The notes: generated from the letters alone by a model not told the origin. DNA of 64,000 bases from Macrostomum lignano (GCA_002269645.1 NIVC01000276.1:237427-301426); one strand, 5' to 3'. Counted from the stretch's first letter, positions 22,985 to 64,000 are shown. Numbers and translations are program-made.

Positions 22985-23534
22985 AGCATGTGGAGAATGC
23001 CAGTCAGGTCGTGCACCGGGGTACCGAGGAATTCAGGCAAGGCTGATGGTCGATTATCAGTGTCAGCTTGAACTATGTGCCACTCATCGGCATGCTCGAC
23101 TCCTGGGACCAATTTCATGAGGCACTGCTAACTGCTATTTAGCAGCTGCTACTCAACTTTTAGTTTCTAAATAGTAGCACAAACCATGGACAATCTCAAT
23201 GCTTATTCGTTCATCGGTAACAGTTTGACACTGCTGCGAGTAAAACATTAAGATATAGGAGCCATATGTGGCAGTCGATAAAAAGTTTTAATGAAAATAT
23301 ATTTAAGTGATATTTAATTAAAACAAAATATACAAATGAAGTATGAGCAAGAAGATACATGGAATGAAGAAGAAACATAAAGGATGCATCCTTCATGAAC
23401 AACGTCAATTTGTATATAGATGTACTTGTCTCATACTTTATTTGCTAACACATGCGCGTCATATTTTTCTCTCCTCTTCAAATTTCATCCTTCATGTTAC
23501 TTGTTCCTTTTTAAATCATTTTATTGTATACTTC

Positions 23535-27563: not shown

Positions 27564-29602
27564 TCTGAAGCCATCTGAATTTTGGTGCTACTAACCCAAG
27601 CCTATGGTACAAGACACCGCCAACCCAAAAATTTGAATCAGGGACGGTGCTAGGACAGAGTCCACCCAGCAGACAAGTCCTCGGGAGTGCGCCAAAAACA
27701 GAATTGGAAAATCGAAAAATGTTGGGTATACTACTTAAAGCCATCCAAGAGCGGGGAAACCCAGAAGTCTTGGAAAAAGGCCTAACTATTGGAGCGAGTC
27801 TGGAAGGCTTTTATCCGAGGGCGAGTCTCCTATTAGGCAGGATATCGCGACTACCTATAAGGCTGCAAACCACAAGGACGTCACCTATCCAGCTCTATAT
27901 TGGAGGCCAGGCCAAGGGGTCGGGAAGGGGCACAAGGACCAAGAGGATCTTAGATTTACTCACTCACAACAGTGTCAAACTGTAACCGATGAACGAATAA
28001 GCATTGAGTAAATGACTATTTTTAGATTGTTCATGGTTCGTGCTACTTGCTTTATTCACCCTAACAGTAGGGTCATGGCGTTTTTATTTGTCCAGATAGT
28101 TTTCACGCGAATGAGCTTTCTGTGTGATATTCTGTGCGCACACCCGCCCCTGCAAATGTCTTCCATTATTTTACACTTTGTTTTTGCTTTTATGTGACGA
28201 TATTTTCAAAGCAAGTGCTGGCTATGAAAATATAAATATATGACTTAATTTTTCTCGATATCCTCAAATGGAATGAAGGATCATTTATTTTTTGGAGCTT
28301 GAGATGAATAGGACCATTGGAAATAAAAATGGCGTCCGTAGCGACCTCACTAGCTAGAAAAAGTTTGGGTCAGTTCGAATCTATTCTCATTAAAGATGCA
28401 TTAGCTGACTAAGTTACACATCATCCATTATTTTTCTCCGAGGCCAATTCATTACTTGACTCTGGGCGTTCTCCCCAAAGAAGCAAGGACTGCACGAAAT
28501 TGCTGTTAGAATCCTAATATTCTGCGGTTCTCCTACCAGCTCTGCCTCCCAATCTGATCTCGCTCTCGTCTCTCCCAGGGCTTTCACGCCACAGTGCAGG
28601 CGATCCTAACTGATCCAAGGCCGATTAGATTAGCTTTATTCTAGCAACGCTCTCCCGATTTTTACAGCCATTCATTTTCTGCTGCTAGAATCGGCGTCGA
28701 TTTCCTGCTCCAATTCCTATTAGTAAGCGTAGGCCATGTTTGAATGCATGGTGCAGACCGTGAGTGCTTGTTCAAAGTGTAAGGATACGTACGCTGTGCA
28801 TGTGGGTTAGGCAATTGCTTTCCATTTCGATCGGTGACAATTTATTAGGTATTCTACACGAACATCAATATACAGACTAGAAAGTTAGAAGCTTACTTAC
28901 CACGAAGCTTATGTCCAAATGCGATTTGTTAGAATGGGGGCTGAGGATCTTTATGTTGAACGTGGGGAGCTACCCAATGCTACCCGGGCTAAAATAAACG
29001 TTCTCTCTGCATTGCTGAGAGGCTACGGAACCAGTGGGATGCAGAACCCTCATTGGATAGTGGCTGGCTGTCCATCCTACCCGAGCCCTGCAGTTGGCTT
29101 CCCAGAGAGATCTGTCTCGATTTCAACCAAAACTGCCGTACGGTTCAGCATAAATGAAAAAAAAATCAGAGCTGTATTTAGAAAATATTTGTACAATTTA
29201 CAGTTAATAATGTTGTATTTTAAGCTCTCATCTAACTGCAAGACTCAAATACTTAAGCAGAGGAGGATAAATTGTACAGTTTGAATAAAATGCAGCTGAA
29301 TGCTGGGAGTTTCAGAACCTGGTTCGAATCATAAAATAATAAAGTTGTAATGAACTTTGGAGCTCTCAGATCTGGGAACTGGAGAGGACTGTGCTAGCAT
29401 AAAGGTAGTACTACTTCATCAGATAATAAACAGCCTTGATTATCTCTACCTTAAAAATCTGAATCAGATAAGCCTACTAACATTATTTTCATCGTCAACA
29501 GTTCCTAGTGATCCCAACAGAGATTTGTTAATCTCGATTCGGTGCTAGCAGCTTCTCTCCGTCCAGTTTCTGAATCCGCAGCTCCAACGATGCGGCTCAG
29601 GA

Positions 29603-33145: not shown

Positions 33146-45935
<12,790 letters not shown>

Positions 45936-46457: not shown

Positions 46458-49400
46458 GTTATCGATGAGCGAAAGATCCGAGGAGCAGCAGGCTGCGAAA
46501 GCCGCTTTTCCGTCAGCATTGATGAACAGTGTGCTCGGGGAGTCCACGTGAGTGCTAAGTCTTTGTTTCATTGTTGATAACTATGCAATATTGCAATGAT
46601 TAGATTAAAGATGATTATAGATTAGAGAAAATCATTTCTTCAAGAAGATTTTAAATTGTGAGCTGAGATTTAAATGAGGAGAGCTAAGATTTAAATGGAG
46701 AGCTGAGATTTAAATGGAGAGCTGAGATTTCAATGGAGAGCTGAGATTTAAATGGGGGAGAGCTGAGATTTAAATGGAGAGCTGAGATTTAAATGGAGAG
46801 CTGAGATTTCAATGGAGAGCTGAGATTTAAATAGGGGAGAGCTGAGATTTAAATGGAGAGCTGAGATTTAAATGGAGAGCTGAGATTTAAATGGAGAGCT
46901 GAGATTTCAATGGAGAGCTGAGATTTCAATGGAGAGCTGAGATTTAAGTGGAGAGCTGAGATTTAAATGGAGAGCTGAGATTTCAATGGAGAGCTGAGAT
47001 TTCAATGGAATGCTGAGATTTAAATGGGGGAGAGCTGAGATTTAAAAGGGGGGAGAGCTGAGATTTAAATGGGGGAGAGCTGAGATTTAAAAGGGGGGAG
47101 AGCTGAGATTTAAATGGGGGAGAGCTGAGATTTAAATGGTGGAGAGCTGAGATTTAAATGGGGGAGAGCTGAGATTTAAATGGGGGAGAGCTGAGATTTA
47201 AATGGGGGAGAGCTGAGATTTTAATGGGGGAGAGCTGAGATTTAAATGGGGAAGGCTGAGATTTAAAGAAAGAGTGCTCATATTTAAATTGGGACTGCTT
47301 AGGTTTAAATAGGGAGTGCTCAGATTTAAATAAGGAGTGCTCAGATTTAAATAGAGAGTGCTCAGATTTAAATAAGGAGTGCTCAGATTTAAATAGGGAG
47401 TGCTCAGATTTAAATAGGGAGTGCTCAGATTTAAATAGGGAGTGCTCAGATTTAAATAGGGAGTGCTCAGATTTAAATAAGGAGTGCTCAGATTTAAATA
47501 GGGAGTGCTCAGATTTAAATAAGGAGTGCTCAGATTTAAATAGGGAGTGCTCAGATTTAAATAAGGAGTGCTCAGATTTAAATAGGGAGTGCTCAGATTT
47601 AAATAGGGAGTGCTCAGATTTAAATAGGGAGTGCTCAGATTTAAATAGGGAGTGCTCAGATTTAAATAGGGAGTGCTCAGATTTAAATAGGGAGTGCTCA
47701 GATTTAAATAAGGAGTGCTCAGATTTTAATAGGGAGTGCTCAGATTTAAATAAGGAGTGCTCAGATTTAAATAGGGAGTGCTCAGATTTAAATAAGGAGT
47801 GCTCAGATTTAAATAGGGAGTGCTCAGATTTAAATAGGGAGTGCTCAGATTTAAATAGGGAGTGCTCAGATTTAAATAGGGAGTGCTCAGATTTAAATAG
47901 GGAGTGCTCAGATTTAAATAGGGAGTGCTCAGATTTAAATAGGGAGTGCTCAGATTTAAATAGGGAGTGCTCAGATTTAAATAGGGAGTGCTCAGATTTA
48001 AATAGAGAGTGCTCAGATTTAAATAGAGAGTGCTCAGATTTAAATAGGGAGTGCTCAGATTTAAATAGGGAGTGCTCAGATTTAAATAGGGAGTGCTCAG
48101 ATTTAAATAGAGAGTGCTCAGATTTAAATAGAGAGTGCTCAGATTTAAATAGGGAGTGCTTAGATTTAAATAGGGAGTGCTCAGATTTAAATAGAGAGTG
48201 CTCAGATTTAAATAGAGAGTGCTCAGATTTAAATAGAGAGTGCTCAGATTTAAATAAGGAGTGCTCAGATTTAAATAGAGAGTGCTCAGATTTAAATAGA
48301 GAGTGCTCAGATTTAAATAAGGAGTGCTCAGATTTAAATAGGGAGTGCTCAGATTTAAATAGGGAGTGCTCAGATTTAAATAGAGAGTGCTCAGATTTAA
48401 ATAGGGAGTGCTCAGATTTAAATAGAGAGTGCTCAGATTTAAATAGGGAGTGCTCAGATTTAAATAGAGAGTGCTCAGATTTAAATAGGGAGTGCTCAGA
48501 TTTAAATAAGGAGTGCTCAGATTTAAATAGGGAGTGCTCAGATTTAAATAGGGAGTGCTCAGATTTAAATAGGGAGTGCTCAGATTTAAATAGGGAGTGC
48601 TCAGATTTAAATAGAGAGTGCTCAGATTTAAATAGGGAGTGCTCAGATTTAAATAGAGAGTGCTCAGATTTAAATAAGGAGTGCTCAGATTTAAATAGAG
48701 AGTGCTCAGATTTAAATAAGGAGTGCTCAGATTTAAATAGGGAGTGCTCAGATTTAAATAGGGAGTGCTCAGATTTAAATAGGGAGTGCTCAGATTTAAA
48801 TAGGGAGTGCTCAGATTTAAATAAGGAGTGCTCAGATTTAAATAGGGAGTGCTCAGATTTAAATAAGGAGTGCTCAGATTTAAATAGGGAGTGCTCAGAT
48901 TTAAATAGGGAGTGCTCAGATTTAAATAGGGAGTGCTCAGATTTAAATAGGGAGTGCTCAGATTTAAATAGAGAGTGCTCAGATTTAAATAGAGAGTGCT
49001 CAGATTTAAATAGGGAGTGCTTAGATTTAAATAGGGAGTGCTCAGATTTAAATAGAGAGTGCTCAGATTTAAATAGAGAGTGCTCAGATTTAAATAGAGA
49101 GTGCTCAGATTTAAATAAGGAGTGCTCAGATTTAAATAGAGAGTGCTCAGATTTAAATAGAGAGTGCTCAGATTTAAATAAGGAGTGCTCAGATTTAAAT
49201 AGGGAGTGCTCAGATTTAAATAGGGAGTGCTCAGATTTAAATAGAGAGTGCTCAGATTTAAATAGGGAGTGCTCAGATTTAAATAGAGAGTGCTCAGATT
49301 TAAATAGGGAGTGCTCAGATTTAAATAGAGAGTGCTCAGATTTAAATAGGGAGTGCTCAGATTTAAATAAGGAGTGCTCAGATTTAAATAGGGAGTGCTC

Positions 49401-52400
49401 AGATTTAAATAAGGAGTGCTCAGATTTAAATAGGGAGTGCTCAGATTTAAATAGGGAGTGCTCAGATTTAAATAGAGAGTGCTCAGATTTAAATAGGGAG
49501 TGCTCAGATTTAAATAGAGAGTGCTCAGATTTAAATAAGGAGTGCTCAGATTTAAATAGAGAGTGCTCAGATTTAAATAGAGAGTGCTCAGATTTAAATA
49601 GGGAGTGCTCAGATTTAAATAGGGAGTGCTTAGATTTAAATAGGGAGTGCTCAGATTTAAATAGGGAGTGCTCAGATTTAAATAGAGAGTGCTCAGATTT
49701 AAATAAGGAGTGCTCAGATTTAAATAAGGAGTGCTCAGATTTAAATAAGGAGTGCTCAGATTTAAATACGGAGTGCTCAGATTTAAATAGGGAGTGCTCA
49801 GATTTAAATAGGGAGTGCTCAGATTTAAATAGGGAGTGCTCAGATTTAAATAGGGAGTGCTCAGATTTAAATAGGGAGTGCTCAGATTTAAATAGAGAGT
49901 GCTCAGATTTAAATAGAGAGTGCTCAGATTTAAATAGGGAGTGCTCAGATTTAAATAAGGAGTGCTTTAGAGATGTTCCGAAAGTGCATTTTCTGCCGAA
50001 ATCAAAATCGAACTCGAAATCTGCCACTTTCCAAACTCAAAATCATAATTTTCTGACATCGAAATTCTGAAAAAAATTATTACGACCAACATTCACTTTT
50101 AAATGTCGTCTACTGCATGCTACATGTAAATGGTAACTATGTGAAGAAATTCCAACAATAATTACTGCCCTGACTCAGGTTCTGTGCAGGGCATGTTCTC
50201 TTGCTCTCTTGCGGCTTCTTTACATGTATTTATCTGTACCCGTATCACTGAATGGCAATTCGTGTAGACCGTGTCTTTGCATCGAATTCCAGTTTAGAAA
50301 AAATAGAACGATGTGACAGTTTAATTATTAAAATAGATACTCTATGATTTTTTTTCTCCATCAATAAATCAGAGCGATGGTGGCTGACGACATACCGCAG
50401 GCTCTGATGAACTTGCTGAGCTGCTGGATGCAGGTGTGTCTGACCCTGGCCAGCCGCGACCGGCGCCTCATCTGTGGGTTCCGCAAAGTGCTGGATCGGC
50501 TCGGAAAAGAGTGAGTTTCCCAGATCCCGATCCCAGATCCCGATCCCAGATCCCGATCCCAGATCCCGATCCCAGATCCCGATCCCAGATCCCGATCCCA
50601 GATCCCGATCCCAGATCCCGATCCCAGATCCCGATCCCAGATCCCGATCCCAGATCCCGATCCCAGATCCCGATCCCAGATCCCGATCCCAGATCCCGAT
50701 CCCAGATCCCGATCCCAGATCCCGATCCCAGATCCCGATCCCAGATCCCGATCCCAGATCCCGATCCCAGATCCCGATCCCAGATCCCGATCCCAGATCC
50801 CGATCCCAGATCCCGATCCCAGATCCCGATCCCAGATCCCGATCCCAGATCCCGATCCCAGATCCCGATCCCAGATCCCGATCCCAGATCCCGATCCCAG
50901 ATCCCGATCCCAGATCCCGATCCCAGATCCCGATCCCAGATCCCGATCCCAGATCCCGATCCCAGATCCCGATCCCAGATCCCGATCCCAGATCCCGATC
51001 CCAGATCCCGATCCCAGATCCCGATCCCAGATCCCGATCCCAGATCCCGATCCCAGATCCCGATCCCAGATCCCGATCCCAGATCCCGATCCCAGATCCC
51101 GATCCCAGATCCCGATCCCAGATCCCGATCCCAGATCCCGATCCCAGATCCCGATCCCAGATCCCGATCCCAGATCCCGATCCCAGATCCCGATCCCAGA
51201 TCCCGATCCCAGATCCCGATCCCAGATCCCGATCCCAGATCCCGATCCCAGATCCCGATCCCAGATCCCGATCCCAGATCCCGATCCCAGATCCCGATCC
51301 CAGATCCCGATCCCAGATCCCGATCCCAGATCCCGATCCCAGATCCCGATCCCAGATCCCGATCCCAGATCCCGATCCCAGATCCCGATCCCAGATCCCG
51401 ATCCCAGATCCCGATCCCAGATCCCGATCCCAGATCCCGATCCCAGATCCCGATCCCAGATCCCGATCCCAGATCCCGATCCCAGATCCCGATCCCAGAG
51501 CGTAAAACATTCTCACCTGCTTTTCGCTGTTCACTTTCAGCAATATTTTATTTTGCATTCTACCGGAAAGTCTCTGGTCGGACAAAACCCACACGGGTAT
51601 GCTTGCCCTGACCCTGGCTTCCTGTCACCAAAGCGGAGTTCGAATGATCAAGGTGAGCGAGACTGGGGCTCACTTGTACTTCATATGAGGGTCGTCCACT
51701 CTAAGTCTAGAATGGACACCTAATTAACCCAGCCAAGGACACCCAAACAATAGCAGCCAAGGACACCCAATCAAAGCAGCCATAGACGCCCAATCAAAGC
51801 AGCTAAGGACACCCAATAAAAGCAACCAGGGACATTTAAAAAAAGCAGTCAAAACACCCAATCAAAGCAGCCATAGACACCCAATCAAAGCAGCCAAGGA
51901 CACCCAATCAAAGCAGTCATAGACACCCAATCAAAGCAGCCATAGACACCCCATCAAAGCAGTCATAGATGAGTAGAAGGCATGAGGGGGCTTTTGGGAC
52001 AAAATTTTTCACATCCTCCATAATCCCATTAAATCCATCCATATTATCCCTGACAGAATCAGAAAAAAAGGGGGGTCGCACTCGCTCACAAAACATCCTC
52101 CATAATCCACCTAAATCCATCCATATTATCCCTGACAGAATCAGAAAAAAAGGGGGGTCGCACTCGCTCACAAAACGTCCTCCATAATCCACCTAAATCC
52201 ATCCATATTATCCCTGACAGAATCATGAAAAAGGGGAGGGGCCGCACTTGCTCCGAAAACTTCGAACATAATCCTATTAAATCCATCCATATTATCCCTG
52301 ACAGAATCAGAGCAGGTGTCCACTGATACCCGTTATGCTCACTGACACAGACATCATCCACTGACATCCACCCATAGCATCTTCGAAACAATCAGAAAAT

Positions 52401-55400
52401 AATCTGCATTCTTATCCCCACATTCAATTCGCAACATGAAACCAGATCCCTAAAACTTTAAATCATCAGCGCAGGGTCCTTACCCTTTGAAAAAAAGTAA
52501 TAAATTCTCAATAAAAATGTTTCCAGTTGTCTCTCCAGGTTCTTATTACAAAGCGCACGAGCCTAATTACAAGAGTAAGTACCGATGCAAACTTGAATGC
52601 AGCGAATACATGAGAAAATATTGGCCCGACGTTCAAATCAATGTCCCTAATATTAATCTAGCTCTCCAAAGACATTGGTTTCATAAGTATGGAGTAACCT
52701 ATGTAAAAGATTATGACAGCTACTATAACTTTGCAGAAATCATTAGGCAATTGTGATTTCTCACATTCTCTCAATGATTAACGTCAATACAAACTCTTCC
52801 CCATTAAAATCAACGCCCATCCCATCTTCAGTCTCAAACTGTAGCACAATCTCGTGAATCTCCTTATTACTCAATACAACTCTTTTCACTGGATTTGGTT
52901 TCTCTACCACCATCTGTCCTCCAGCTACAGAGTTGGAGATGTTGTACAAAATATTCGTTCGCTTTCCCTTAAATACCCAATCAAGACTGAGATTAGTTCT
53001 GATTAGAATATTCAAACCCTTTACAATGTCTGCTATATTGGGTGCTAAGAACAAACCGCGTACACTTTCCCGGGCCATGATAACAGCCCCCGTCGCTTGA
53101 GTGACAGTCCGCGCTGTGGATTCTGCCTTATAAACTTTCTTCACGAATCCCAATTCCCTATACCAAGTGTCATCTTTAAACTCAACCTCCGCATCTTTGT
53201 GAACTTGCATGACCACTCTCATTACAGTGAGATCATAGGTTAGTTTAACAGGGAACAGTTTCTTCTCTGGCTTACTCATATCAGGTGTCTCAAAATGGCC
53301 TCTTTTAGTAAAGACGTTTTCTAGAAAGTAATTGTAGGTATCCACACTTTGCGTGCTCACAGGGAATACCACAGGTTCTGCTGCTGCACCTTTCCATTTG
53401 TAATAAAACTTATTATTTGCTGCCGTCACATTGGGAACGTTTGACCAACCAGTGAAGTCGTTAAGATAGACATGGTAATTAGCACCTGGATCCAGGCGAA
53501 TCGCCTGCTCTAATTTTTGAATAAATATCCCGTTTGAGTCATTAATTCGCCCAGTTATTGTAATAGGAATGCTCTCCTTGGAGTGCGAAATAATATTATT
53601 TAGTCTTTCAGCAATCGCTTCCATTTTTTTCACATAAAAAAATATTTAAACTTTACTGGATGAATTGTTGATCATGTTAAGCTTCACCTTCCTCTCAAAT
53701 GCATAGATAATGTACAAGTCCACAGGTGTTGCGACAGTCCTCTCAATGTTAGTCACGATATTCACAGGGCTGTTATCAGTAGGCATTTGTCTGGCAGACA
53801 CATCAGCGCCAAACATTGGATATAGAGTTCCATATTGAAGAGCAGTGATAGCAATTCCATTGTTCTCTTTCACAGCCAAGTCGACCAACTCGCTATAAAA
53901 TTTGCTAATCTTGTTCTGACTGAAATCTCCATTTTGTGGCAGTGCAGGGTAAAGATTATCACTGATTTCATGCTGAATGGACCGCACGTCACCATGCATG
54001 TAGCGTATAATGCTATTTGGGTTTCTCATATTAATAATGATATACCTTGGATTGCTGCATGATCCCTCTTTAATGCAGATGTTTGTTCTAGTTTTGTTTC
54101 GCTCATCTCGACACATGTAGGCTGTGTATGCAACATCAATGTCCTTCTCTATTGCCTTAAGATAGTCTGCTTTTAGTGCAGTCTTTGGCTCAATGACTTC
54201 CAAATACAGCTCGATTCCGGTTAGCTTCACCTCCATCCTTGTGTGGTCCGCCCCAGTCCACAACACTCTACTGCGATCATCTCTAGTCATCTTAAAAGTG
54301 TAGCTAAAGTTACTAGTCAGTCGATTAAATGTACTACAAAATCCACTCATGAATCTCAGTGGTACAAATACATCAACAGACCGATACAGCGGGTTTTTAG
54401 CAGCATCATCAGCACCTTGCAATGCATAGTTGTATCTCTTCTTCCTCTTTTTATAGCCACTGTCATTGGTGTCTCCTTCTTTTTCATCTGCGATAAAACC
54501 CGCACCACTTCCCAACTGAATAAAATCAGGATTCTCGATCAAACAATGAGCGTCATAGACAATTCCAAAGTTGGCGATTCGCTCCAACTCAGTGCTCCCA
54601 TTCGATACACTAAACTCCTTGAACATGTACGCCCAAAAGTTACTGATCAGAGCCACATCCGCATCATGCTTGTCAACGTTAGCACGAGCCGCATCCGCAC
54701 CACCCTTTGTCTTGAATTGAAATGTCATATGGAAGCCGCTCTTAAGACTGTGCACACTAACCAAAGACGAACATCCATTGTATGTAAATGTCAGTGTTTG
54801 GCCAGGACCAAGATTAGTTTCATTCTGATTTTCCTGACTGGGAACTCTTACCTGAGTCACTTTGATTGTGCTATCATCACTCAAAATAGGCTTGTTAATT
54901 TTGTAGAAAACTGGTGTCAGTGGGTCGTTCATTTTTTAACTAAAAATAAAATAAAATAAGAAATGAAGCGAAAAAGTACACAGCAGATATCTGAATTGGA
55001 GAAGCTAGCACAAGCAGAGAAACGAGTTACCGGGCTAATAAATAAGGAGCAACAATCCTACAATGAGTTTGTCCAAGCAGCCACCGAATTTCACAAACCC
55101 GGATACACAGAAGCGAAGAAAAACCTCGACACTGTGAAGGAAGCAGTTGATGATATTCAAGAGAGCCACTTGCAAAACACATTGGGTAAAATCCCATCTT
55201 CACCAGGACAACCACAGGCTCAGGAACCAGGACAACCGGTGCAGATGAAAGTGACGGATAACTTTTTTGGCCCCGTAGTGGATGATGGAAAATATATTTT
55301 TGGAATTAGCGCCTGGCGAAAAAATATTACCGGGGAACCGGCGGATTACAACATTGAAGTGACAAAGGAAAACATTTCAATCAATAAAGGCGCAAAAACT

Positions 55401-58400
55401 AAAAGAATCCAGTTCACTCAAACTTTACTTGATTACATGACTAAAAATCTAGAGAATACGTCTAAAAAGCAGCTCAAAAATTACAAAGATCTTGTTACCT
55501 TTGCTCTCGATAGGGATATAGATATGCTCAAGAACAACGGTGTTTTGAAAATTTTACATGAAAACGGGATTGTCTTGAACAGATTTAAAAAAAATACAAA
55601 TACTTTAAACAATGGTTTGGTTTGCCGGATCAGGAAGAGGTCATAAGACAACAACCACAACAACAACAGCAACAACAGCAACCGCCACAACAGCAGCAAC
55701 ATTTCACAGAAGAACAAGTACTCAGGCAACTGGAAAATGCAGATCCGACTCAAGTAGCTAAATATAATAATGATCACCCAACAGACTGGCAACACTTAGA
55801 ACAACACTCTCCAGATCGAATGAACAGAATCAAGCAAAGAGTTTTCACACCTCAACAAAGACAGGCGCCACATGACAGTTCCATCTCTGAAAGTGAGCAG
55901 TCTTTTGGATCACCTCCCCAGCAGCCACAAGCCCAACCAACTCCACAACCCCAAGACCAACCACCCAAATCTGGAAAAGGAATAGCTGAAATCTACAAGC
56001 GAGTAGCGGTTCTTCTAGGAGCGGCAAAGACCGGAATGAAAGACGAGAATAGAAAAGAATTTGTCAACATCCTGGACAAAATGCTTGAGAGAAAATACAT
56101 CGATAAGAGGGCGAGAGAGCTTCTGCTTTCGCGGTTCAACAAAAAATAATTTATTTCAAGTAAAAATGCCACTTATTTTCGAAAAAGACATTGACAAATA
56201 CTATGACAAAGAGGAACTTAATCTTATTAAACGCGGATCTGGACTTTTCCCTGCAGGCCACTATCCAAGAAAAGAGCGCTCCGGGAATGGCCTTGCCGAT
56301 TTGATCGCTCAGGGGGCTAAGATTTTTAAGGTCATTGGAGAGAACAAAGAGAACATCAAGAACGTTGCCGAAGCGGCTGGCAGTGTAGCCACAGCAGCCA
56401 AAAAGATAAAGGATACTGTAACACCTAAACAAGAGATTCAACCTCCACTGGCCCCGCTGGCTCCGCTGGCCCCAAATCCAGACAGTGTGGACCCTGCAGT
56501 CTATGAGAAGATGAGAGCTAGCATTAAAAAAGGAAGTGGTTTCAAATTTGACTAAAGGGTACTTTCCGAGGGTACAAGAAATGTAAAGGTACAAGACTAG
56601 TCCCAAAATGACATACCTAAGTCCCAAAATGACACATCTAAGTCCCAAAATAACACATCTAAGTCCCAAAATGACACATCTAAGTCCCAAAATGACACAT
56701 CTAAGTCCCAAAATGACACATCTTCTAAATGTTTTATTATTAAAAAAAAATTTTTTTTCATCATAGAAAAAATGGACTTTTCAAAGGACTTCAATCCTCA
56801 CTGGACGCGTAATCAGATTAAGTTTTCTCATCATGAGTCAATCCCGAGTCACTTCAGATGCATTGTTGTTGGTTCATCAGGTTCAGGTAAAACATTCAGA
56901 GTCTTTAACATGCTTCTTAGACCTGGCTTCATCGACTATGACACTCTGCACATCTACTCTCCCACACTGTATCAAGATGAGTATAGAATGCTGATTTCTG
57001 GATTGCAAAACAAACTGAACAAAGAGGACATTATTCAATGTTTTAATAACCAAATGAGCCTTCCCAGTAACCCAGAAATTGTAGCTGCCGAATATGCAAA
57101 GCACCTCAAAGACAATGAAAAATGGCAGAACATTAAAGTGTTCTCCTATGGAGATCCGCAGGTGGATCCAAAGACCAAACTTCTACCCCATCCAGATGAG
57201 CTAGAAAAAGGGAGAAAGCATTTGATCGTCTTTGATGATTGTATGACAGGCCCACAGAAGCAGATAGAAAACTATTTTACAAGAGGGCGACATAACAATT
57301 GTAATGTAATTTACATTGCACAGAACTGGTTCGAGCTCCCGAACAAAACAATTTGCGGGAACTGCAATCTGATTCTCCTGTTTCCAACCATTCCACAGGA
57401 CAGGTTAAAAAGATTTTACAATGAGTTCATTGCGCCTGCCTATTTCATAAATCCAACAAAAAACTCAAACAGAAAGATTTCACAGGAGGAATTCGTTAAT
57501 CTTTGCTATGACAAGTGGAATCAGCCTTACCAGTTTGAGATTATCAGCAAAGAAAAAAGAACTGTAATTTAAAATTTGCTATTAAAAGATGTCTATTAAT
57601 TTTGCAGGTGAATCCATTTCTGGCAACAGCGCTCTTACATCAGCTCAAATATCCATCCTTGACAGGCGATATATCAACAGCGACGAAGAGATCCCAGAGA
57701 TCAAACTGAATAAAAACAGACTGAAAGCCCTACTAGAGCGCTCCATGCACCAGCTACAGATAAACATGGAAGATCTCAGGCTTAAAGTAGCTAGGCAGAA
57801 GTTTGAAAGTGATGAGCTTTTTGTGCCGTTGTCAAACGCAACTAATGAACTAAGGTCAGAAATAACTTCGATAGTCTCGCTAATCAACGGCTTGAGATCA
57901 TCAGTTAATCTTCTGGGAAATTCCACTGATAGACGGATGCGTATTCTTGAAGGAGGAGTTTTCACAAACACAGCTAAAGTAAATAATTTAGAAGAGTTCA
58001 TGAACCAGTCAACAGTGTTGCATGATAGAATTAAAGAAAACGTCGCAACCAACACAGGTAAAGTGAGGAATTTAGAAGAGTTCATGACTCAGTCAACATC
58101 GTTGCATGATAGAATTAAAGAAAGACTTGATGCAATTAAAGTCTATTTAGATTTAATTTTTACCGAATGGCAGAAATCGTTGAGAAGAATCAGTCGTCTT
58201 GAGGGAGTACACAATCTTCCTGATATTGATACTGTTGAAGAGGCACCACAGACCACAAGGGAAATAAGTGATCCAACCGACTTGACCACTGACCACGAAT
58301 TTCGTGAGCCAACCAGTTTGACCACTAACCCAAAATTTCGTGAGCCAACCGGTTTGTTTGAGATCAAGTGTAGAATGGAGCGCATAGACAAATAAATAGG

Positions 58401-61400
58401 TAGATTCGAAGAGACCTGCTGGCGCCAACTGCAGACGAAACAATCAAACGTAAAACAAATCTAACCACCACCAAAGAGTTGTCAATTTTGGGACTTAGAT
58501 GTGTCATTTTGGGACTTAGATGTGTCATTTTGGGACTTAGATGTGTTATTTTGGGACTTAGATGTGTCATTTTGGGACTTAGGTATGTCATTTTGGGACT
58601 AGTCTTGTACCTTTACATTTCTTGTACCCTCGGAAAGTACCCTTTAGTCAAATTTGAAACCACTTCCTTTTTTAATGCTAGCTCTCATCTTCTCATAGAC
58701 TGCAGGGTCCACAATGTCTGGATTTGGGGCCAGCGGAGCCAGCGGGGCCAGTGGAGGTTGAATCTCTTGTTTAGGTGTTACAGTATCCTTTATCTTTTTG
58801 GCTGCTGTGGCTACACTGCCAGCCGCTTCGGCAACGTTCTTGATGTTCTCTTTGTTCTCTCCAATGACCTTAAAAATCTTAGCCCCTGAGCGATCAAATC
58901 GGCAAGGCCATTCCCGGAGCGCTCTTTTCTTGGATAGTGGCCTGCAGGGAAAAGTCCAGATCCGCGTTTAATAAGATTAAGTTCCTCTTTGTCATAGTAT
59001 TTGTCAATGTCTTTTTCGAAAATAAGTGGCATTTTTACTTGAAATAAGTTATTTTTTGTTGAACCGCGAAAGCAGAAGCTCTCTCGCCCTCTTATCGATG
59101 TATTTTCTCTCAAGCATTTTGTCCAGGATGTTGACAAATTCTTTTCTATTCTCGTCTTTCATTCCGGTCTTTGCCGCTCCTAGAAGAACCGCTACTCGCT
59201 TGTAGATTTCAGCTATTCCTTTTCCAGATTTGGGTGGTTGGTCTTGGGGTTGTGGAGTTGGTTGGGCTTGTGGCTGCTGGGGAGGTGATCCAAAAGACTG
59301 CTCACTTTCAGAGATGGAACTGTCATGTGGCGCCTGTCTTTGTTGAGGTGTGAAAACTCTTTGCTTGATTCTGTTCATTCGATCTGGAGAGTGTTGTTCT
59401 AAGTGTTGCCAGTCTGTTGGGTGATCATTATTATATTTAGCTACTTGAGTCGGATCTGCATTTTCCAGTTGCCTGAGTACTTGTTCTTCTGTGAAATGTT
59501 GCTGCTGTTGTGGCGGTTGCTGTTGTTGCTGTTGTTGTTGTGGTTGTTGTCTTATGACCTCTTCCTGATCCGGCAAACCAAACCATTGTTTAAAGTATTT
59601 GTATTTTTTTTAAATCTGTTCAAGACAATCCCGTTTTCATGTAAAATTTTCAAAACACCGTTGTTCTTGAGCATATCTATATCCCTATCGAGAGCAAAGG
59701 TAACAAGATCTTTGTAATTTTTGAGCTGCTTTTTAGACGTATTCTCTAGATTTTTAGTCATGTAATCAAGTAAAGTTTGAGTGAACTGGATTCTTTTAGT
59801 TTTTGCGCCTTTATTGATTGAAATGTTTTCCTTTGTCACTTCAATGTTGTAATCCGCCGGTTCCCGGTAATATTTTTTCGCCAGGCGCTAATTCCAAAAA
59901 TATATTTTCCATCATCCACTACGGGGCCAAAAAAGTTATCCGTCACTTTCATCTGCACCGGTTGTCCTGGTTCCTGAGCCTGTGGTTGTCCTGGTGAAGA
60001 TGGGATTTTACCCAATGTGTTTTGCAAGTGGCTCTCTTGAATATCATCAACTGCTTCCTTCACAGTGTCGAGGTTTTTCTTCGCTTCTGTGTATCCGGGT
60101 TTGTGAAATTCGGTGGCTGCTTGGACAAACTCATTGTAGGATTGTTGCTCCTTATTTATTAGCCCGGTAACTCGTTTCTCTGCTTGTGCTAGCTTCTCCA
60201 ATTCAGATATCTGCTGTGTACTTTTTCGCTTCATTTCTTATTTTATTTTATTTTTAGTTAAAAAATGAACGACCCACTGACACCAGTTTTCTACAAAATT
60301 AACAAGCCTATTTTGAGTGATGATAGCACAATCAAAGTGACTCAGGTAAGAGTTCCCAGTCAGGAAAATCAGAATGAAACTAATCTTGGTCCTGGCCAAA
60401 CACTGACATTTACATACAATGGATGTTCGTCTTTGGTTAGTGTGCACAGTCTTAAGAGCGGCTTCCATATGACATTTCAATTCAAGACAAAGGGTGGTGC
60501 GGATGCGGCTCGTGCTAACGTTGACAAGCATGATGCGGATGTGGCTCTGATCAGTAACTTTTGGGCGTACATGTTCAAGGAGTTTAGTGTATCGAATGGG
60601 AGCACTGAGTTGGAGCGAATCGCCAACTTTGGAATTGTCTATGACGCTCATTGTTTGATCGAGAATCCTGATTTTATTCAGTTGGGAAGTGGTGCGGGTT
60701 TTATCGCAGATGAAAAAGAAGGAGACACCAATGACAGTGGCTATAAAAAGAGGAAGAAGAGATACAACTATGCATTGCAAGGTGCTGATGATGCTGCTAA
60801 AAACCCGCTGTATCGGTCTGTTGATGTATTTGTACCACTGAGATTCATGAGTGGATTTTGTAGTACATTTAATCGACTGACTAGTAACTTTAGCTACACT
60901 TTTAAGATGACTAGAGATGATCGCAGTAGAGTGTTGTGGACTGGGGCGGACCACACAAGGATGGAGGTGAAGCTAACCGGAATCGAGCTGTATTTGGAAG
61001 TCATTGAGCCAAAGACTGCACTAAAAGCAGACTATCTTAAGGCAATAGAGAAGGACATTGATGTTGCATACACAGCCTACATGTGTCTAGATGAGCGAAA
61101 CGAAACTAGAACAAACATCTGCATTAAAGAGGGATCATGCAGCAATCCAAGGTATATCATTATTAATATGAGAAACCCAAATAGCATTATACGCTACATG
61201 CATGGTGACGTGCGGTCCATTCAGCATGAAATCAGTGATAATCTTTACCCTGCACTGCCACAAAATGGAGATTTCAGTCAGAACAAGATTAGCAAATTTT
61301 ATAGCGAGTTGGTCGACTTGGCTGTGAAAGAGAACAATGGAATTGCTATCACTGCTCTTCAATATGGAACTCTATATCCAATGTTTGGCGCTGATGTGTC

Positions 61401-64000
61401 TGCCAGACAAATGCCTACTGATAACAGCCCTGTGAATATCGTGACTAACATTGAGAGGACTGTCGCAACACCTGTGGACTTGTACATTATCTATGCATTT
61501 GAGAGGAAGGTGAAGCTTAACATGATCAACAATTCATCCAGTAAAGTTTAAATATTTTTTTATGTGAAAAAAATGGAAGCGATTGCTGAAAGACTAAATA
61601 ATATTATTTCGCACTCCAAGGAGAGCATTCCTATTACAATAACTGGGCGAATTAATGACTCAAACGGATATTTATTCAAAAATTAGAGCAGGCGATTCGC
61701 CTGGATCCAGGTGCTAATTACCATGTCTATCTTAACGACTTCACTGGTTGGTCAAACGTTCCCAATGTGACGGCAGCAAATAATAAGTTTTATTACAAAT
61801 GGAAAGGTGCAGCAGCAGAACCTGTGGTATTCCCTGTGAGCACGCAAAGTGTGGATACCTACAATTACTTTCTAGAAAACGTCTTTACTAAAAGAGGCCA
61901 TTTTGAGACACCTGATATGAGTAAGCCAGAGAAGAAACTGTTCCCTGTTAAACTAACCTATGATCTCACTGTAATGAGAGTGGTCATGCAAGTTCACAAA
62001 GATGCGGAGGTTGAGTTTAAAGATGACACTTGGTATAGGGAATTGGGATTCGTGAAGAAAGTTTATAAGGCAGAATCCACAGCGCGGACTGTCACTCAAG
62101 CGACGGGGGCTGCTTATCATGGCCCGGGAAAGTGTACGCGGTTTGTTCTTAGCACCCAATATAGCAGACATTGTAAAGGGTTTGAATATTCTAATCAGAA
62201 CTAATCTCAGTCTTGATTGGGTATTTAAGGAAAGCGAACGAATATTTTGTACAACATCTCCAACTCTGTAGCTGGAGGACAGATGGTGGTAGAGAAACCA
62301 AATCCAGTGAAAAGAGTTGTATTGAGTAATAAGGAGATTCACGAGATTGTGCTACAGTTTGAGACTGAAGATGGGATGGGCGTTGATTTTAATGGGGAAG
62401 AGTTTGTATTGACGTTAATCATTGAGAGAATGTGAGAAATCACAATTGCCTAATGATTTCTGCAAAGTTATAGTAGCTGTCATAATCTTTTACATAGGTT
62501 ACTCCATACTTATGAAACCAATGTCTTTGGAGAGCTAGATTAATATTAGGGACATTGATTTGAACGTCGGGCCAATATTTTCTCATGTATTCGCTGCATT
62601 CAAGTTTGCATCGGTACTTACTCTTGTAATTAGGCTCGTGCGCTTTGTAATAAGAACCTGGAGAGACAACTGGAAACATTTTTATTGAGAATTTATTACT
62701 TTTTTTCAAAGGGTAAGGACCCTGCGCTGATGATTTAAAGTTTTAGGGATCTGGTTTCATGTTGCGAATTGAATGTGGGGATAAGAATGCAGATTATTTT
62801 CTGATTGTTTCGAAGATGCTATGGGTGGATGTCAGTGGATGATGTCTGTGTCAGTGAGCATAACGGGTATCAGTGGACACCTGCTCTGATTCTGTCAGGA
62901 TAATATGGATGGATTTAATAGGATTATGTTCGAAGTTTTCGGAGCAAGTGGCCCCTCCCCTTTTTCATGATTCTGTCAGGGATAATATGGATGGATTTAG
63001 GTGGATTATGGAGGACGTTTTGTGAGCGAGTGCGACCCCCTTTTTTCTGATTCTGTCAGGGATAATATGGATGGATTTAGGTGGATTATGGAGGATGTTT
63101 TGTGAGCGAGTGCGACCCCCCTTTTTTTCTGATTCTGTCAGGGATAATATGGATGGATTTAATGGGATTATGGAGGATGTGAAAAATTTTGTCCCAAAAG
63201 CCCCCTCATGCCTTCTACTTAGATGCCCAAACAAAGCAGCTAAGGACACCCAAACAAAACAGCCATAGACACCCAATCAAAGCAGCCAAGGACCCTTATC
63301 AAAGCAGCCAAGGACACCTTATCAAAGCAGCCAAGGACACCCAATCAAAGCAGCTAAGGACACCCAATCAAAGCAGCCAAGGACACCCAATCAAATCAAA
63401 GCAGCCAAGGACACCCAATCAAAGCAGCCAAGGACACCCAATCAAAGCAGCCATAGACGCCCAATCAAAGCAGCCATAGACACCCAAACAAAGCAGCTAA
63501 GGACACCCAATCAAAGCAGCAGGGACATTTAAAAAAAGCAGTCAAAACACCCAATCAAAGCAGCCATAGACACCCAATCAAAGCAGCAAGGACACCCAAT
63601 CAAAGCAGCCATAGACACCCAATCAATGCAGCCAAGGACACCCAATCAAAGCAGCCAAGGACACCCAATCAAAGCAGCCATAGACACCCAATCAATGCAG
63701 CCAAGGACACCCAATCAAAGCAGTCATAGACACCCTATCAAAGCAGCCATAGACACCCTATCAAAGCAGTCATAGATGCCCAAACAAAGCAACCCCAAGG
63801 ATATTCAACCCGACCGCCGCCCCGCCAGGTCGACCAGCACCAGTTGGTGCAAAAGACCATCGCAGCCATCGGCCAGCCCCGAACTGCAGCGCCGCAAAGC
63901 TACGAGTGCCTGGCCGTCCTGGACGCCGGACACCCCCAGCCGGAGTGCGACTCCGAGCTGGTGAAATTCTACGACAGCGAGATCACGGATGCGACTTCAA
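46458..64000 (+). CDS. Uncharacterised spliced host gene; exons 46458-46547 (possible ATG 46465), 50373-50510, 51541-51652, 63829->64000
   Basis: Three successive GT-AG junctions keep frame (phases 2, 2, 0): ..LGEST-AMVADDIPQALMNLLSCWMQVC..LGKD-NILFCILPESLW..VRMIK-VDQHQLVQKTIAAIG..; the last acceptor is the least certain. Confidence 0.6.
46665..47265. repeat. 20-24-bp minisatellite (GAGAGCTGAGATTTAAATGG) related to the adjacent 21-bp array
   Basis: Direct; shares the AGATTTAAAT core. Confidence 0.95.
47270..49965. repeat. 21-bp satellite (GAGTGCTCAGATTTAAATAGG), ~128 units
   Basis: Direct. Confidence 0.97.
50519..51498. repeat. Homogeneous 13-bp repeat (CCCAGATCCCGAT), ~75 units, starting 8 nt after a splice donor
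   Basis: Direct; no variant unit noticed. Confidence 0.97.
51730..51971 (+). repeat. ~23-bp intronic minisatellite (AAAGCAGCCAAGGACACCCAATC), left part; ends in TSD TAGATG (51966-51971)
   Basis: Same orientation as the continuation at 63220-63795. Confidence 0.93.
52016..52310. repeat. Subterminal ~82-bp direct repeats (~3.5 units), mirrored at ~62880-63175
   Basis: Unit CTCCATAATCCACCTAAATCCATCCATATTATCCCTGACAGAATCAG.. recurs at 52016, 52098, 52180. Confidence 0.85.
52487..52756 (+). CDS. Small element ORF (79-89 aa, Tyr/Lys-rich), unknown function
   Basis: Intact in both arms; convergent with the minor capsid gene. Confidence 0.45.
   Translation: MKKSNKFSIKMFPVVSPGSYYKAHEPNYKSKYRCKLECSEYMRKYWPDVQINVPNINLALQRHWFHKYGVTYVKDYDSYYNFAEIIRQL
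52761..53624 (-). CDS. Minor capsid (penton-like, single jelly-roll) protein, ~287 aa
   Basis: Beta-rich; C-terminal EIVLQFETEDGMGVDFNGEEFVLTLII typical of Polinton/PLV pentons; directly downstream of the major capsid gene. Confidence 0.75.
   Translation of the reverse strand: MEAIAERLNNIISHSKESIPITITGRINDSNGIFIQKLEQAIRLDPGANYHVYLNDFTGWSNVPNVTAANNKFYYKWKGAAAEPVVFPVSTQSVDTYNYFLENVFTKRGHFETPDMSKPEKKLFPVKLTYDLTVMRVVMQVHKDAEVEFKDDTWYRELGFVKKVYKAESTARTVTQATGAVIMARESVRGLFLAPNIADIVKGLNILIRTNLSLDWVFKGKRTNILYNISNSVAGGQMVVEKPNPVKRVVLSNKEIHEIVLQFETEDGMGVDFNGEEFVLTLIIERM
53646..54932 (-). CDS. Major capsid (double jelly-roll-like) protein, 428 aa
   Basis: Size and motifs (DDSTI, FVPLRFMSGF, IELYLEVIEP, PRYIII, LYP, YPMFGADVS) fit Maverick major capsid proteins; context with penton and ATPase. 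Confidence 0.8.
   Translation of the reverse strand: MNDPLTPVFYKINKPILSDDSTIKVTQVRVPSQENQNETNLGPGQTLTFTYNGCSSLVSVHSLKSGFHMTFQFKTKGGADAARANVDKHDADVALISNFWAYMFKEFSVSNGSTELERIANFGIVYDAHCLIENPDFIQLGSGAGFIADEKEGDTNDSGYKKRKKRYNYALQGADDAAKNPLYRSVDVFVPLRFMSGFCSTFNRLTSNFSYTFKMTRDDRSRVLWTGADHTRMEVKLTGIELYLEVIEPKTALKADYLKAIEKDIDVAYTAYMCRDERNKTRTNICIKEGSCSNPRYIIINMRNPNSIIRYMHGDVRSIQHEISDNLYPALPQNGDFSQNKISKFYSELVDLAVKENNGIAITALQYGTLYPMFGADVSARQMPTDNSPVNIVTNIERTVATPVDLYIIYAFERKVKLNMINNSSSKV
54963..56149 (+). CDS. Element protein split into 54963-55646 and 55622-56149; probably one ~395-aa protein joined by a -1 shift at the A8 run (55587-94)
   Basis: Second ORF has no ATG after its upstream stop; adding one A gives RFKKKYKYFKQWFGLPDQEE..; Gln/Pro-rich middle, helical C-terminus. 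Confidence 0.55.
56166..56555 (+). CDS. Small core/membrane-lytic-like virion protein, 129 aa
   Basis: GxG-hydrophobic motifs (KRGSG-L, RSGNG-L, KKGSG-F) and an amphipathic segment LADLIAQGAKIFKVIG; AAAAATG start context. Confidence 0.55.
   Translation: MPLIFEKDIDKYYDKEELNLIKRGSGLFPAGHYPRKERSGNGLADLIAQGAKIFKVIGENKENIKNVAEAAGSVATAAKKIKDTVTPKQEIQPPLAPLAPLAPNPDSVDPAVYEKMRASIKKGSGFKFD
56599..56723 (+). repeat. Six 21-bp direct repeats (AAGTCCCAAAATGACACATCT) at the inner end of the left arm; mirrored at 58485-58600
   Basis: Direct; the right copy has five units plus a partial sixth. Confidence 0.95.
56772..57572 (+). CDS. A32/FtsK-like DNA packaging ATPase, 266 aa (single copy, in the loop)
   Basis: Walker A VVGSSGSGKT, Walker B LIVFDDCM, YFTRGRHNNCNVIYIAQ (A32-type RGRH and Q motifs). 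Confidence 0.92.
   Translation: MDFSKDFNPHWTRNQIKFSHHESIPSHFRCIVVGSSGSGKTFRVFNMLLRPGFIDYDTLHIYSPTLYQDEYRMLISGLQNKLNKEDIIQCFNNQMSLPSNPEIVAAEYAKHLKDNEKWQNIKVFSYGDPQVDPKTKLLPHPDELEKGRKHLIVFDDCMTGPQKQIENYFTRGRHNNCNVIYIAQNWFELPNKTICGNCNLILLFPTIPQDRLKRFYNEFIAPAYFINPTKNSNRKISQEEFVNLCYDKWNQPYQFEIISKEKRTVI
57589..58395 (+). CDS. Coiled-coil protein with 28-aa and 12-aa internal repeats, 268 aa (single copy)
   Basis: Heptad-rich; 84-bp repeat (57964, 58048) and 36-bp repeats (~58272-58355). Confidence 0.65.
   Translation: MSINFAGESISGNSALTSAQISILDRRYINSDEEIPEIKLNKNRLKALLERSMHQLQINMEDLRLKVARQKFESDELFVPLSNATNELRSEITSIVSLINGLRSSVNLLGNSTDRRMRILEGGVFTNTAKVNNLEEFMNQSTVLHDRIKENVATNTGKVRNLEEFMTQSTSLHDRIKERLDAIKVYLDLIFTEWQKSLRRISRLEGVHNLPDIDTVEEAPQTTREISDPTDLTTDHEFREPTSLTTNPKFREPTGLFEIKCRMERIDK
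58644..59032 (-). pseudogene. Right-arm copy of the 129-aa ORF with a 1-nt deletion in a G run (~58883-86)
   Basis: Reverse complement of 56166-56555; 389 vs 390 nt. Confidence 0.8.
59049..60234 (-). pseudogene. Right-arm copy of the 54963-56149 ORF pair with an extra 1-nt deletion (~59864)
   Basis: Reverse complement; GGG vs GGGG at the NITG codons. Confidence 0.8.
60265..61551 (+). CDS. Major capsid protein, second intact copy (428 aa; R>L and K>E versus the left copy)
   Basis: Reverse complement of 53646-54932; differences at 61088 and 61102. Confidence 0.8.
   Translation: MNDPLTPVFYKINKPILSDDSTIKVTQVRVPSQENQNETNLGPGQTLTFTYNGCSSLVSVHSLKSGFHMTFQFKTKGGADAARANVDKHDADVALISNFWAYMFKEFSVSNGSTELERIANFGIVYDAHCLIENPDFIQLGSGAGFIADEKEGDTNDSGYKKRKKRYNYALQGADDAAKNPLYRSVDVFVPLRFMSGFCSTFNRLTSNFSYTFKMTRDDRSRVLWTGADHTRMEVKLTGIELYLEVIEPKTALKADYLKAIEKDIDVAYTAYMCLDERNETRTNICIKEGSCSNPRYIIINMRNPNSIIRYMHGDVRSIQHEISDNLYPALPQNGDFSQNKISKFYSELVDLAVKENNGIAITALQYGTLYPMFGADVSARQMPTDNSPVNIVTNIERTVATPVDLYIIYAFERKVKLNMINNSSSKV
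61573..62435 (+). pseudogene. Minor capsid, second copy, disrupted by a 1-nt insertion (~62113) and a 1-nt deletion (~62230)
   Basis: Reverse complement of 52761-53624. Confidence 0.75.
62440..62709 (-). CDS. Second copy of the small Tyr/Lys-rich ORF
   Basis: Identical translation to 52487-52756. Confidence 0.45.
   Translation of the reverse strand: MKKSNKFSIKMFPVVSPGSYYKAHEPNYKSKYRCKLECSEYMRKYWPDVQINVPNINLALQRHWFHKYGVTYVKDYDSYYNFAEIIRQL
63220..63795 (+). repeat. ~23-bp intronic minisatellite, right part, beginning with TSD TAGATG
   Basis: Same unit and orientation as 51730-51971. Confidence 0.93.

What the first reader, a model, noticed from the sequence alone, without database searches (positions are those of the whole stretch)
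51972..63219. Virion-module-only element: no polymerase, integrase or protease recognised between the TSDs
Every ORF inside is capsid, penton, ATPase, core-like or unknown, and none is long enough for pPolB. Yet the precise ends and TSD imply integrase action in trans. Options: (a) a helper-dependent satellite; (b) a defective-interfering genome; (c) one segment of a bipartite Maverick whose replication genes sit on a partner element with the same termini. Bidnaviruses, which use a Polinton-derived pPolB, provide a precedent for segmentation.
Basis: partly seen in the sequence, partly recalled or inferred. Interest (0 to 1): 0.8.

Follow-up and report, generated by a model that had tools for sequence, protein, structure and literature searches.

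The report
Palindromic capsid-only Polinton derivative
An animal genome carries a cleanly inserted virus-like element that has no copying or integrating genes and holds its capsid genes twice, as a mirror image, which looks like the footprint of a replication error in a Polinton virus rather than a new two-part virus.

Summary
Window 51,972-63,219 (11,248 bp) has AGTAG…CTACT ends and an exact 6-bp target duplication. It encodes a double-jelly-roll capsid, a penton and an A32 ATPase, and no polymerase, integrase or protease. The finding as written omits that 84% of it is one palindrome: two 4.74-kb inverted arms (4 substitutions, 8 small indels) around a 1.77-kb spacer, so only 6.5 kb is unique. 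The right arm copies the left up to a single junction inside a 21-bp array, with microhomology beyond it. One structural gene is split in both arms; three right-arm genes carry further breaks. Best reading (0.45): a copy-back defective genome of a Polinton/adintovirus, made by one template switch and integrated by the parent's integrase. Rivals: rearrangement in place after autonomous insertion (0.22; the target duplication does not prove action in trans), an established satellite family (0.12), assembly chimera (0.12), bipartite virus (0.07). polB-less Polintons and gene-bearing 2-kb terminal repeats are already reported in butterflies; my ten searches listed no capsid-only palindrome. Copy number, helper and raw reads could not be checked.

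The parts
51966..51971 (+). Left target-site duplication TAGATG
   Evidence: single copy in a neighbouring satellite unit
51972..56714 (.). Left inverted arm (4,743 bp), starts AGTAG
51972..52516 (.). Non-coding terminus with 82-bp sub-repeats (52,011-52,311); probably the parent's original terminal repeat (inferred)
52517..52756 (+). ORF79, unassigned small protein
   Evidence: no Pfam, PHROG, NCBIfam or PDB hit
52761..53624 (-). Penton / minor capsid protein, 287 aa, open frame
   Evidence: 13 relatives; model pLDDT 75; Foldseek top hits mavirus penton E=8e-11, Sputnik chain 3j26_N, adenovirus pentons
53646..54932 (-). Double-jelly-roll major capsid protein, 428 aa, open frame
   Evidence: PF21738 E=7e-5, below cut-off; relatives P0001 and P0007 pass the cut-off; Foldseek PBCV-1 capsid E=4e-11 from a pLDDT 53 model
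54963..56149 (+). One structural gene in two frames (ORF227 54,963-55,646 and frame 55,589-56,149), broken at an A-run at 55,587; PZ/GasderminX-like by position and C-terminal motif (label recalled, not tested by profile)
   Evidence: both halves match single 396- and 446-aa relatives; run position
56166..56555 (+). ORF129, small protein with an amphipathic helix and three GxG motifs; PM/cupiennin-like by position (label recalled)
   Evidence: 44 of 1000 shuffles reach the helix moment; no named hit
56599..56723 (+). 21-bp tandem array, 6 units, at the inner end of the left arm
56772..57572 (+). A32-type packaging ATPase, 266 aa, single copy in the spacer
   Evidence: Pox_A32 above cut-off; Walker A, Walker B and GRH motifs
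57589..58395 (+). ORF268, heptad-rich protein with internal 84- and 36-bp repeats; fibre-like coiled coil (inferred), single copy
   Evidence: no relative among 757 candidates; only weak PDB hits, one a coiled-coil protein
58473..58600 (-). Junction: copy of the 21-bp array cut in unit 6, followed by 12 nt of imperfect homology (9 of 12)
58485..63219 (.). Right inverted arm (4,735 bp), ends CTACT
58644..59032 (-). Second copy of ORF129, frameshifted near 58,887
59049..60234 (-). Second copy of the split gene: same break as the left copy, plus one near 59,866
60265..61551 (+). Second major capsid gene, open frame, two amino-acid differences from the left copy
61573..62435 (+). Second penton gene, broken near 61,668, 62,114 and 62,231
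62440..62679 (-). Second copy of ORF79, identical protein
63220..63225 (+). Right target-site duplication TAGATG

Best explanation
A copy-back (panhandle) defective genome of a Polinton/adintovirus-type element. Shown: Polinton-type ends and 6-bp target duplication; virion genes only; the right arm is a near-identical inverted copy of the left; one junction, lying in microhomology. Inferred: (1) a parent carried TIR-ORF79-penton-MCP-split gene-ORF129-array-ATPase-ORF268 followed by the polymerase, integrase and perhaps protease genes; (2) during protein-primed strand-displacement replication, a nascent strand stopped about 90 bp past ORF268, re-annealed to its own 21-bp array and was extended back to the left end, which deleted the replication half and duplicated the capsid half in one step; (3) the product had two valid termini, so the parent's polymerase and integrase in the same cell could copy and insert it; (4) since then it has been a passenger.
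For: Arms 99.9% identical in aligned positions and 84% of the element. The right array repeats the left array unit by unit, including its variant units, and stops inside unit 6, so it is a copy and not an independent array. Homology continues 9 of 12 nt past the exact arm end; such a match occurs at 0 of 3,460 other spacer positions, 3 of 9,216 left-arm positions and 69 of 103,378 host positions. One switch explains both the loss and the duplication. In vertebrate Mavericks the module holding pz, pm and atp also holds ppolb (PMC8097293 section 7), and here the split gene, ORF129 and ATPase run toward the junction. Signs of defectiveness: a gene whole in two relatives is split in both arms, and both MCP substitutions between the arms change the amino acid, one at a residue kept by 7 of 9 relatives. 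polB-less Polintons that stayed mobile are reported in Pieris mannii (10.1101/2025.02.07.637071).
Against: One locus only: no second copy, helper or raw read was available, so action in trans is not shown. The parent must have had polymerase, integrase and protease all beyond ORF268, whereas vertebrate Mavericks keep int and pro in the capsid module; here gaps of 4, 21 and 30 bp leave no trace of them. The arm differences look like long-read error (8 indels against 4 substitutions; 7 of 8 shorter on the right; 6 of 8 in runs of 3 or more, against 22% of bases), so the right-arm breaks, and the shared break in the only long A-run of any coding region, may not be biological. Copy-back replication in Polintons is an analogy from other linear viruses (recalled); my search for a direct precedent returned only AAV papers. 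The 12-nt window was chosen after seeing the junction.
Confidence: 0.45

Rival explanations
1. Rearranged in place. An autonomous element inserted itself with its own integrase. Later a chromosomal repair or replication template switch from the right terminal repeat into the left one copied 4.7 kb and rejoined at the array microhomology, deleting the replication half. No integrase in trans was ever needed.
For: Target duplication and ends survive such an event untouched. The break shared by both arms would be a mutation older than the duplication. Polinton repeats are linked to inversions in C. elegans (10.1101/2024.01.15.575659, passages).
Against: Needs two switches rather than one. The left arm is otherwise almost undamaged and the arms differ by only 4 substitutions, leaving little time between insertion and rearrangement.
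Confidence: 0.22
2. An established non-autonomous or satellite family: the palindrome is the normal form, copied and integrated repeatedly by a helper and supplying capsids, with the arms kept alike by panhandle repair.
For: Complete capsid, penton and ATPase set with open frames in the left arm. Gene-bearing ~2-kb terminal repeats with two hexon and adenain copies are a stable design in butterfly Polintons. An integrated PLV without a detectable integrase is reported (PMC11296320). None of the 9 MCP and 13 penton relatives is on a contig longer than 3,702 bp, as expected if long repeats broke their assemblies.
Against: The split structural gene has no intact copy in either arm, and three right-arm genes are broken further. 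Short metagenomic contigs are the norm and prove nothing. No other copy lies in the 64 kb.
Confidence: 0.12
3. Assembly chimera: a fold-back or amplification chimeric read joined through the terminal repeat to the true right end of a normal full-length Polinton.
For: The indel pattern in the right arm is that of a poorly supported consensus. Long palindromes are hard for long-read assemblers (general knowledge).
Against: A simple fold-back would run on into the reverse complement of the left flank, but the right flank continues the satellite in the forward direction behind an exact target duplication. The 1.77-kb unique spacer, the microhomology at the junction and 4 substitutions between arms are also unexpected.
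Confidence: 0.12
4. One segment of a bipartite Polinton: a partner with the same termini carries polymerase, integrase and protease, and neither works alone. The partner could be the reciprocal, replication-only palindrome of a crossover at inverted arrays.
For: The virion genes are cleanly separated from all replication genes. Segmented relatives by polymerase exist: bidnaviruses and Drosophila Vesanto virus with shared terminal repeats. Repeat-bracketed replication modules and replication-only transpoviron-like elements are described (10.64898/2026.10.13.758929 section 13).
Against: No partner in the window: no terminus match outside the element; 0 of 96 scanned outside frames hit pPolB or a Polinton protease (38 of 134 frames lying mostly in tandem arrays were left out). 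The duplication and broken genes are unlike a maintained segment. The right array is a copy, not an independent array.
Confidence: 0.07

Closest known systems
Polinton/Maverick (Polintoviricetes; animal adintoviruses)
   Same: AG…CT ends, 6-bp target duplication, DJR capsid, penton, A32 ATPase, intronless compact genes, and an atp-pm-pz-like gene run (PMC8097293 section 7; PMC4028283 passages).
   Different: No pPolB, integrase or protease. 11.2 kb against 12.7-24.6 kb for intact vertebrate elements. Inverted arms of 4.74 kb against 46-1,447 bp. End reads AGTAGA, not (AGT)2.
Butterfly Polintons with gene-bearing TIRs, and polB-less Pieris mannii copies (Pannagram preprint 10.1101/2025.02.07.637071)
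   Same: Capsid gene duplicated inside ~2-kb terminal repeats; loss of polB with continued mobility.
   Different: Their repeats hold hexon and adenain around a core of normal size, and the polB-less copies carry LINE or LTR cargo. Here the repeats are more than twice as long, make up 84% of the element, and integrase and protease are missing too.
Copy-back / panhandle defective viral genomes
   Same: One end copied onto the other through a single junction, replication genes lost, termini kept (definition from the search listing of PMC6140465; mechanism recalled).
   Different: Described mostly for RNA viruses and as free genomes; this one is DNA, integrated, and interference with a helper is untested.
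Bidnaviruses and Drosophila Vesanto virus
   Same: Segments with matching terminal repeats and a Polinton-related polymerase on some segments.
   Different: They are described as ssDNA, parvovirus-like viruses; this element has a DJR capsid, a penton, a packaging ATPase and an integrase-type target duplication, and no partner is known.
Transpovirons and integrase-less PLVs
   Same: Half-genomes with terminal repeats that lean on another virus.
   Different: Transpovirons keep the replication half and lose the virion half, the mirror image of this; those PLVs encode other replication genes.

Membership tests
Polinton/Maverick (autonomous) | Protein-primed family B polymerase | tested here: not met
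   Longest frame 429 codons; 0 of 49 frames with a polymerase family
Polinton/Maverick (autonomous) | Retroviral-type (rve) integrase | tested here: not met
   0 of 49 frames, control hit rve 5e-12; own profile best E=0.66 over 183 frames
Polinton/Maverick (autonomous) | [quoted passage not shown] | tested here: met
Polinton/Maverick (autonomous) | (AGT)2 or (AG)3 end motif | tested here: inconclusive
   End reads AGTAGA, 5 of 6 to (AGT)2
Polinton/Maverick (autonomous) | DJR major capsid, penton and A32 ATPase | tested here: met
Polinton/Maverick (autonomous) | Adenovirus-like cysteine protease (found in 74% of Polintons) | tested here: not met
   0 of 49 frames; no room between genes
Beta adintovirus virion module | GasderminX and cupiennin-like accessory genes | tested here: inconclusive
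   Position, GxG motifs and an amphipathic helix fit, but no profile names them
Non-autonomous Polinton derivative | Polinton ends and target duplication without the enzymes | tested here: met
Non-autonomous Polinton derivative | Mobilised in trans (same structure at several loci) | not testable with these tools
   Only this window was available; no second copy in it
Copy-back defective genome | One end copied onto the other through a single junction | tested here: met
Copy-back defective genome | A full-length parent with the same left half exists and is interfered with | not testable with these tools
   No host genome or particle data
Satellite virus | Own capsid, no replicase | tested here: met
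Satellite virus | Stable lineage distinct from its helper | not testable with these tools
   Relatives have no genomic context; the GTDB scan found none
Bidnavirus-like segmented virus | Partner segment with matching termini and pPolB | tested here: inconclusive
   None within 64 kb; rest of genome unchecked
Bidnavirus-like segmented virus | Parvovirus-like virion rather than DJR capsid plus penton | tested here: not met
Polinton-like virus (PLV) | Alternative replicase (large helicase) or tyrosine recombinase | tested here: not met
   No such family; no frame above 429 codons

The most novel reading that the evidence does not exclude
This is the virion segment of a Polinton caught splitting in two. 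A crossover or copy-back at the 21-bp array yields a capsid-only palindrome and a reciprocal replication-only palindrome with the same termini; both integrate and complement each other. That would be the first multipartite double-jelly-roll virus and a living route from Polintons to segmented forms and transpoviron-like replicons.
Probability: 0.07. Interest if true: 0.88.

Novelty: new variant of a known kind. Interest (0 to 1): 0.52.

Why it matters
How animal Polintons replicate is still inferred rather than observed. An integrated copy-back genome would be a fossil of free, strand-displacement replication and of one element supplying enzymes to another, and its junction gives a PCR- and read-level marker for finding both. 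Surveys that require pPolB plus integrase or cap terminal repeats at 2.5 kb would miss or mis-call such elements, so they may be under-counted. A 4.7-kb inverted repeat of capsid genes could also make hairpin RNA that silences relatives (speculation). If it is a one-off rearrangement or an assembly chimera, it matters little.

Tried and rejected
Hidden integrase, polymerase or protease: rejected by Pfam, PHROGs, NCBIfam and an own integrase profile. Sub-cutoff or weak hits (DUF1104, an antitoxin PHROG, TagH, lipase chaperone) were treated as noise; the whole-length relatives of ORF227 do not repeat DUF1104. Simple fold-back read artefact: rejected by forward flanks and the target duplication. 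Programmed frameshift at the shared break: not supported; two relatives are continuous and the downstream RNA folds no better than shuffles (z -0.94, 38 of 200). Genomic context of relatives: the GTDB scan gave 60 pattern matches, 0 confirmed; the ATPase had no match in phages; viral and metagenome contig collections stayed unchecked; names and accessions of cluster members could not be looked up. ESM Atlas gave no usable hit for ORF227 and only unnamed clusters for ORF129. Sequence searches of PDB with the MCP and split-gene profiles found nothing. An assembly error control from host repeats was too small to use: one 197-bp LTR pair with 2 substitutions and 0 indels. Host species: a free-living flatworm was my guess for one search (one unrelated paper); untested.

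Full report
OBSERVATION. The element runs from 51,972 to 63,219 (11,248 bp), starts AGTAG, ends CTACT and is flanked by TAGATG on both sides. It sits in a 23-bp minisatellite that keeps its direction across the insertion. A neighbouring unit at 63,750-63,803 has the same context with one TAGATG, so the 6-bp target duplication is real. GC is 40.7% against 49.9% for the rest of the window. The host is an animal by its neighbouring genes (Cys-loop channels, otopetrin); the species was not determined.

THE PALINDROME. The finding as written does not say that the element is mostly one inverted repeat. The arms 51,972-56,714 and 58,485-63,219 (4,743 and 4,735 bp) differ by 4 substitutions and 8 indels of 1-2 bp. 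They make up 84% of the element and leave a 1.77-kb spacer, so unique content is 6,513 bp. Each arm holds a non-coding end with 82-bp sub-repeats, ORF79, penton, MCP, a split gene, ORF129 and a 21-bp array. The spacer holds the ATPase and ORF268.

GENES. MCP (428 aa): PF21738 at E=7e-5, below the cut-off; 9 relatives at 43-77% identity, two of two tested passing the cut-off. A weak model (pLDDT 53) still matches PBCV-1, iridovirus and virophage capsids at E down to 4e-11. Penton (287 aa): 13 relatives; the model (pLDDT 75) matches mavirus penton at E=8e-11, then Sputnik and adenovirus chains. ATPase (266 aa): Pox_A32 above cut-off, with Walker A, Walker B and GRH motifs. ORF227 and the frame 55,589-56,149 are two halves of one gene that is whole in P0023 (396 aa) and P0024 (446 aa). 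The break lies at an A-run at 55,587, the only run of seven or more in any coding region, and is present in both arms. By position next to ORF129 and the ATPase this matches the pz-pm-atp run of vertebrate Mavericks (PMC8097293 section 7) and the GasderminX and cupiennin genes of Beta adintoviruses (PMC8502044 section 3.2). These labels rest on position and recalled motifs; no profile gave them. ORF268 is heptad-rich with no relatives found. ORF79 is unassigned.

MISSING GENES. The longest stop-free frame is 429 codons and the largest gap between genes is 545 bp. 0 of 49 frames of 45 aa or more in the left arm plus spacer hit a polymerase, integrase or protease family, while the host Gypsy control hit rve at 5e-12. 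PHROGs and NCBIfam agreed on 13 frames. A profile of three host integrase cores scored at best E=0.66 over 183 frames of the whole element. No Polinton control was available to calibrate sensitivity. No helper lies in the window: the element has no nucleotide match outside itself, 0 of 82 tblastn hits of the 27 relatives fall outside it, and 0 of 96 outside frames hit pPolB or a Polinton protease (38 of 134 frames, mostly tandem repeat, were left out).

THE JUNCTION. The left array has six units and runs on into the ATPase. The right array repeats it unit by unit, variants included, and stops inside unit 6, 89 bp past the ORF268 stop. The next 12 nt still match the left array at 9 positions. 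Such a match occurs at 0 of 3,460 other spacer positions, 3 of 9,216 left-arm positions and 69 of 103,378 host positions; the 12-nt window was chosen after inspection. So the left arm is the original context and the right arm a copy joined at microhomology.

MECHANISM. The simplest account is one template switch. A strand copied from the left end stopped past ORF268, primed on its own array and was extended back to the left end, losing everything beyond ORF268 and doubling the capsid half. The product has two valid ends, so a parent in the same cell could replicate and integrate it. Shown: the anatomy, the direction of copying, the microhomology, the missing genes. Inferred: the parent's gene order, free replication, action in trans. 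Against it: vertebrate Mavericks keep int and pro in the capsid module, so the parent must have been ordered differently, and one locus cannot show mobility. That rival needs two switches and gets 0.22. The arm differences look like long-read error (7 of 8 indels shorter on the right; 6 of 8 in runs of three or more, against 22% of bases). The right-arm breaks are therefore weak evidence of decay, and a chimera keeps 0.12, although forward flanks, the unique spacer and 4 substitutions argue against it. An established satellite family (0.12) and a bipartite virus (0.07) have no positive evidence but were not testable.

COMPARISON WITH WHAT IS KNOWN. Polintons are defined by pPolB plus integrase (PMC5499653), so this is a Polinton-derived element, not a member. 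Intact vertebrate elements are 12.7-24.6 kb with 46-1,447-bp repeats. A preprint reports butterfly Polintons with ~2-kb repeats that hold hexon and adenain twice, and polB-less copies that stayed mobile (10.1101/2025.02.07.637071). An integrated PLV without detectable integrase is known (PMC11296320), as are replication-only and repeat-bracketed modules (10.64898/2026.10.13.758929) and segmented bidna-like viruses. Short non-autonomous Polintons in the original descriptions are recalled, not read. Ten searches listed no capsid-only palindromic Polinton; only the top 12-25 rows of the larger result sets were shown, and the library lacks most subscription journals.

WHAT I READ. Named sections plus passages: PMC8502044, PMC8097293, 10.1101/2025.02.07.637071, 10.64898/2026.10.13.758929. 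Passages only: PMC11296320, 10.1101/2024.01.15.575659, PMC6431247, PMC11131425, 10.1101/2022.07.12.499685, PMC4028283, PMC8363768, PMC5499653, PMC12220804. Search listing only: PMC6140465. No supplements or figures were seen; the genome maps in the adintovirus supplements and in the two preprints could hold a closer precedent.

VERDICT. Real and well bounded. Most likely a young, defective copy-back derivative of a Polinton, and a new variant of a known kind. Its interest lies in the extreme palindrome and in the junction, which makes free replication and complementation testable with genome reads. Interest 0.52; the bipartite case would deserve 0.88 at probability 0.07.

Noticed in passing
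window 53,061-53,126 (penton residues 167-188): The penton carries a 22-residue in-frame insert where more than 60% of its 13 relatives have gaps; possibly a variable surface loop.
   Followed up: partly
window 54,933-54,962: MCP and the split gene start head to head with only 30 AT-rich bp between their start codons, and most genes have an A-run before the ATG.
   Followed up: no
window 56,166-56,555 and 55,973-55,981: GxG motifs in ORF129 and near the C-terminus of the split gene, the latter kept in both whole relatives. They resemble maturation-protease sites (recalled) although the element encodes no protease.
   Followed up: partly
window 11,955-16,408: A young Gypsy-type retrotransposon with 197-bp LTRs 99% identical; gag and pol lie in different frames.
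   Followed up: partly
window 17,250-19,810 and 24,150-27,810: Two further, broken Gypsy-type elements on the minus strand.
   Followed up: no
window 22,667-23,032: A DDE transposase fragment (PF13843) just upstream of a Cys-loop ion-channel gene at 21,006-22,603.
   Followed up: no
window 41,631-45,932: An otopetrin gene interrupted by long minisatellites (15-bp array 42,077-42,659; 19-bp array 43,600-45,572).
   Followed up: no
window 34,979-35,510 and 38,378-38,894: The same 23-bp minisatellite in inverted orientation about 3 kb apart, possibly the ends of a foldback-type element.
   Followed up: no
window 46,662-51,499: A 3.3-kb 21-bp array and a perfect 75-copy 13-bp array lie just left of the insertion; the region is dense in satellites.
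   Followed up: no
P0001-P0022: All 22 capsid and penton relatives come from contigs of 3,702 bp or less, and none has an informative name: the lineage appears undescribed in these sets.
   Followed up: partly
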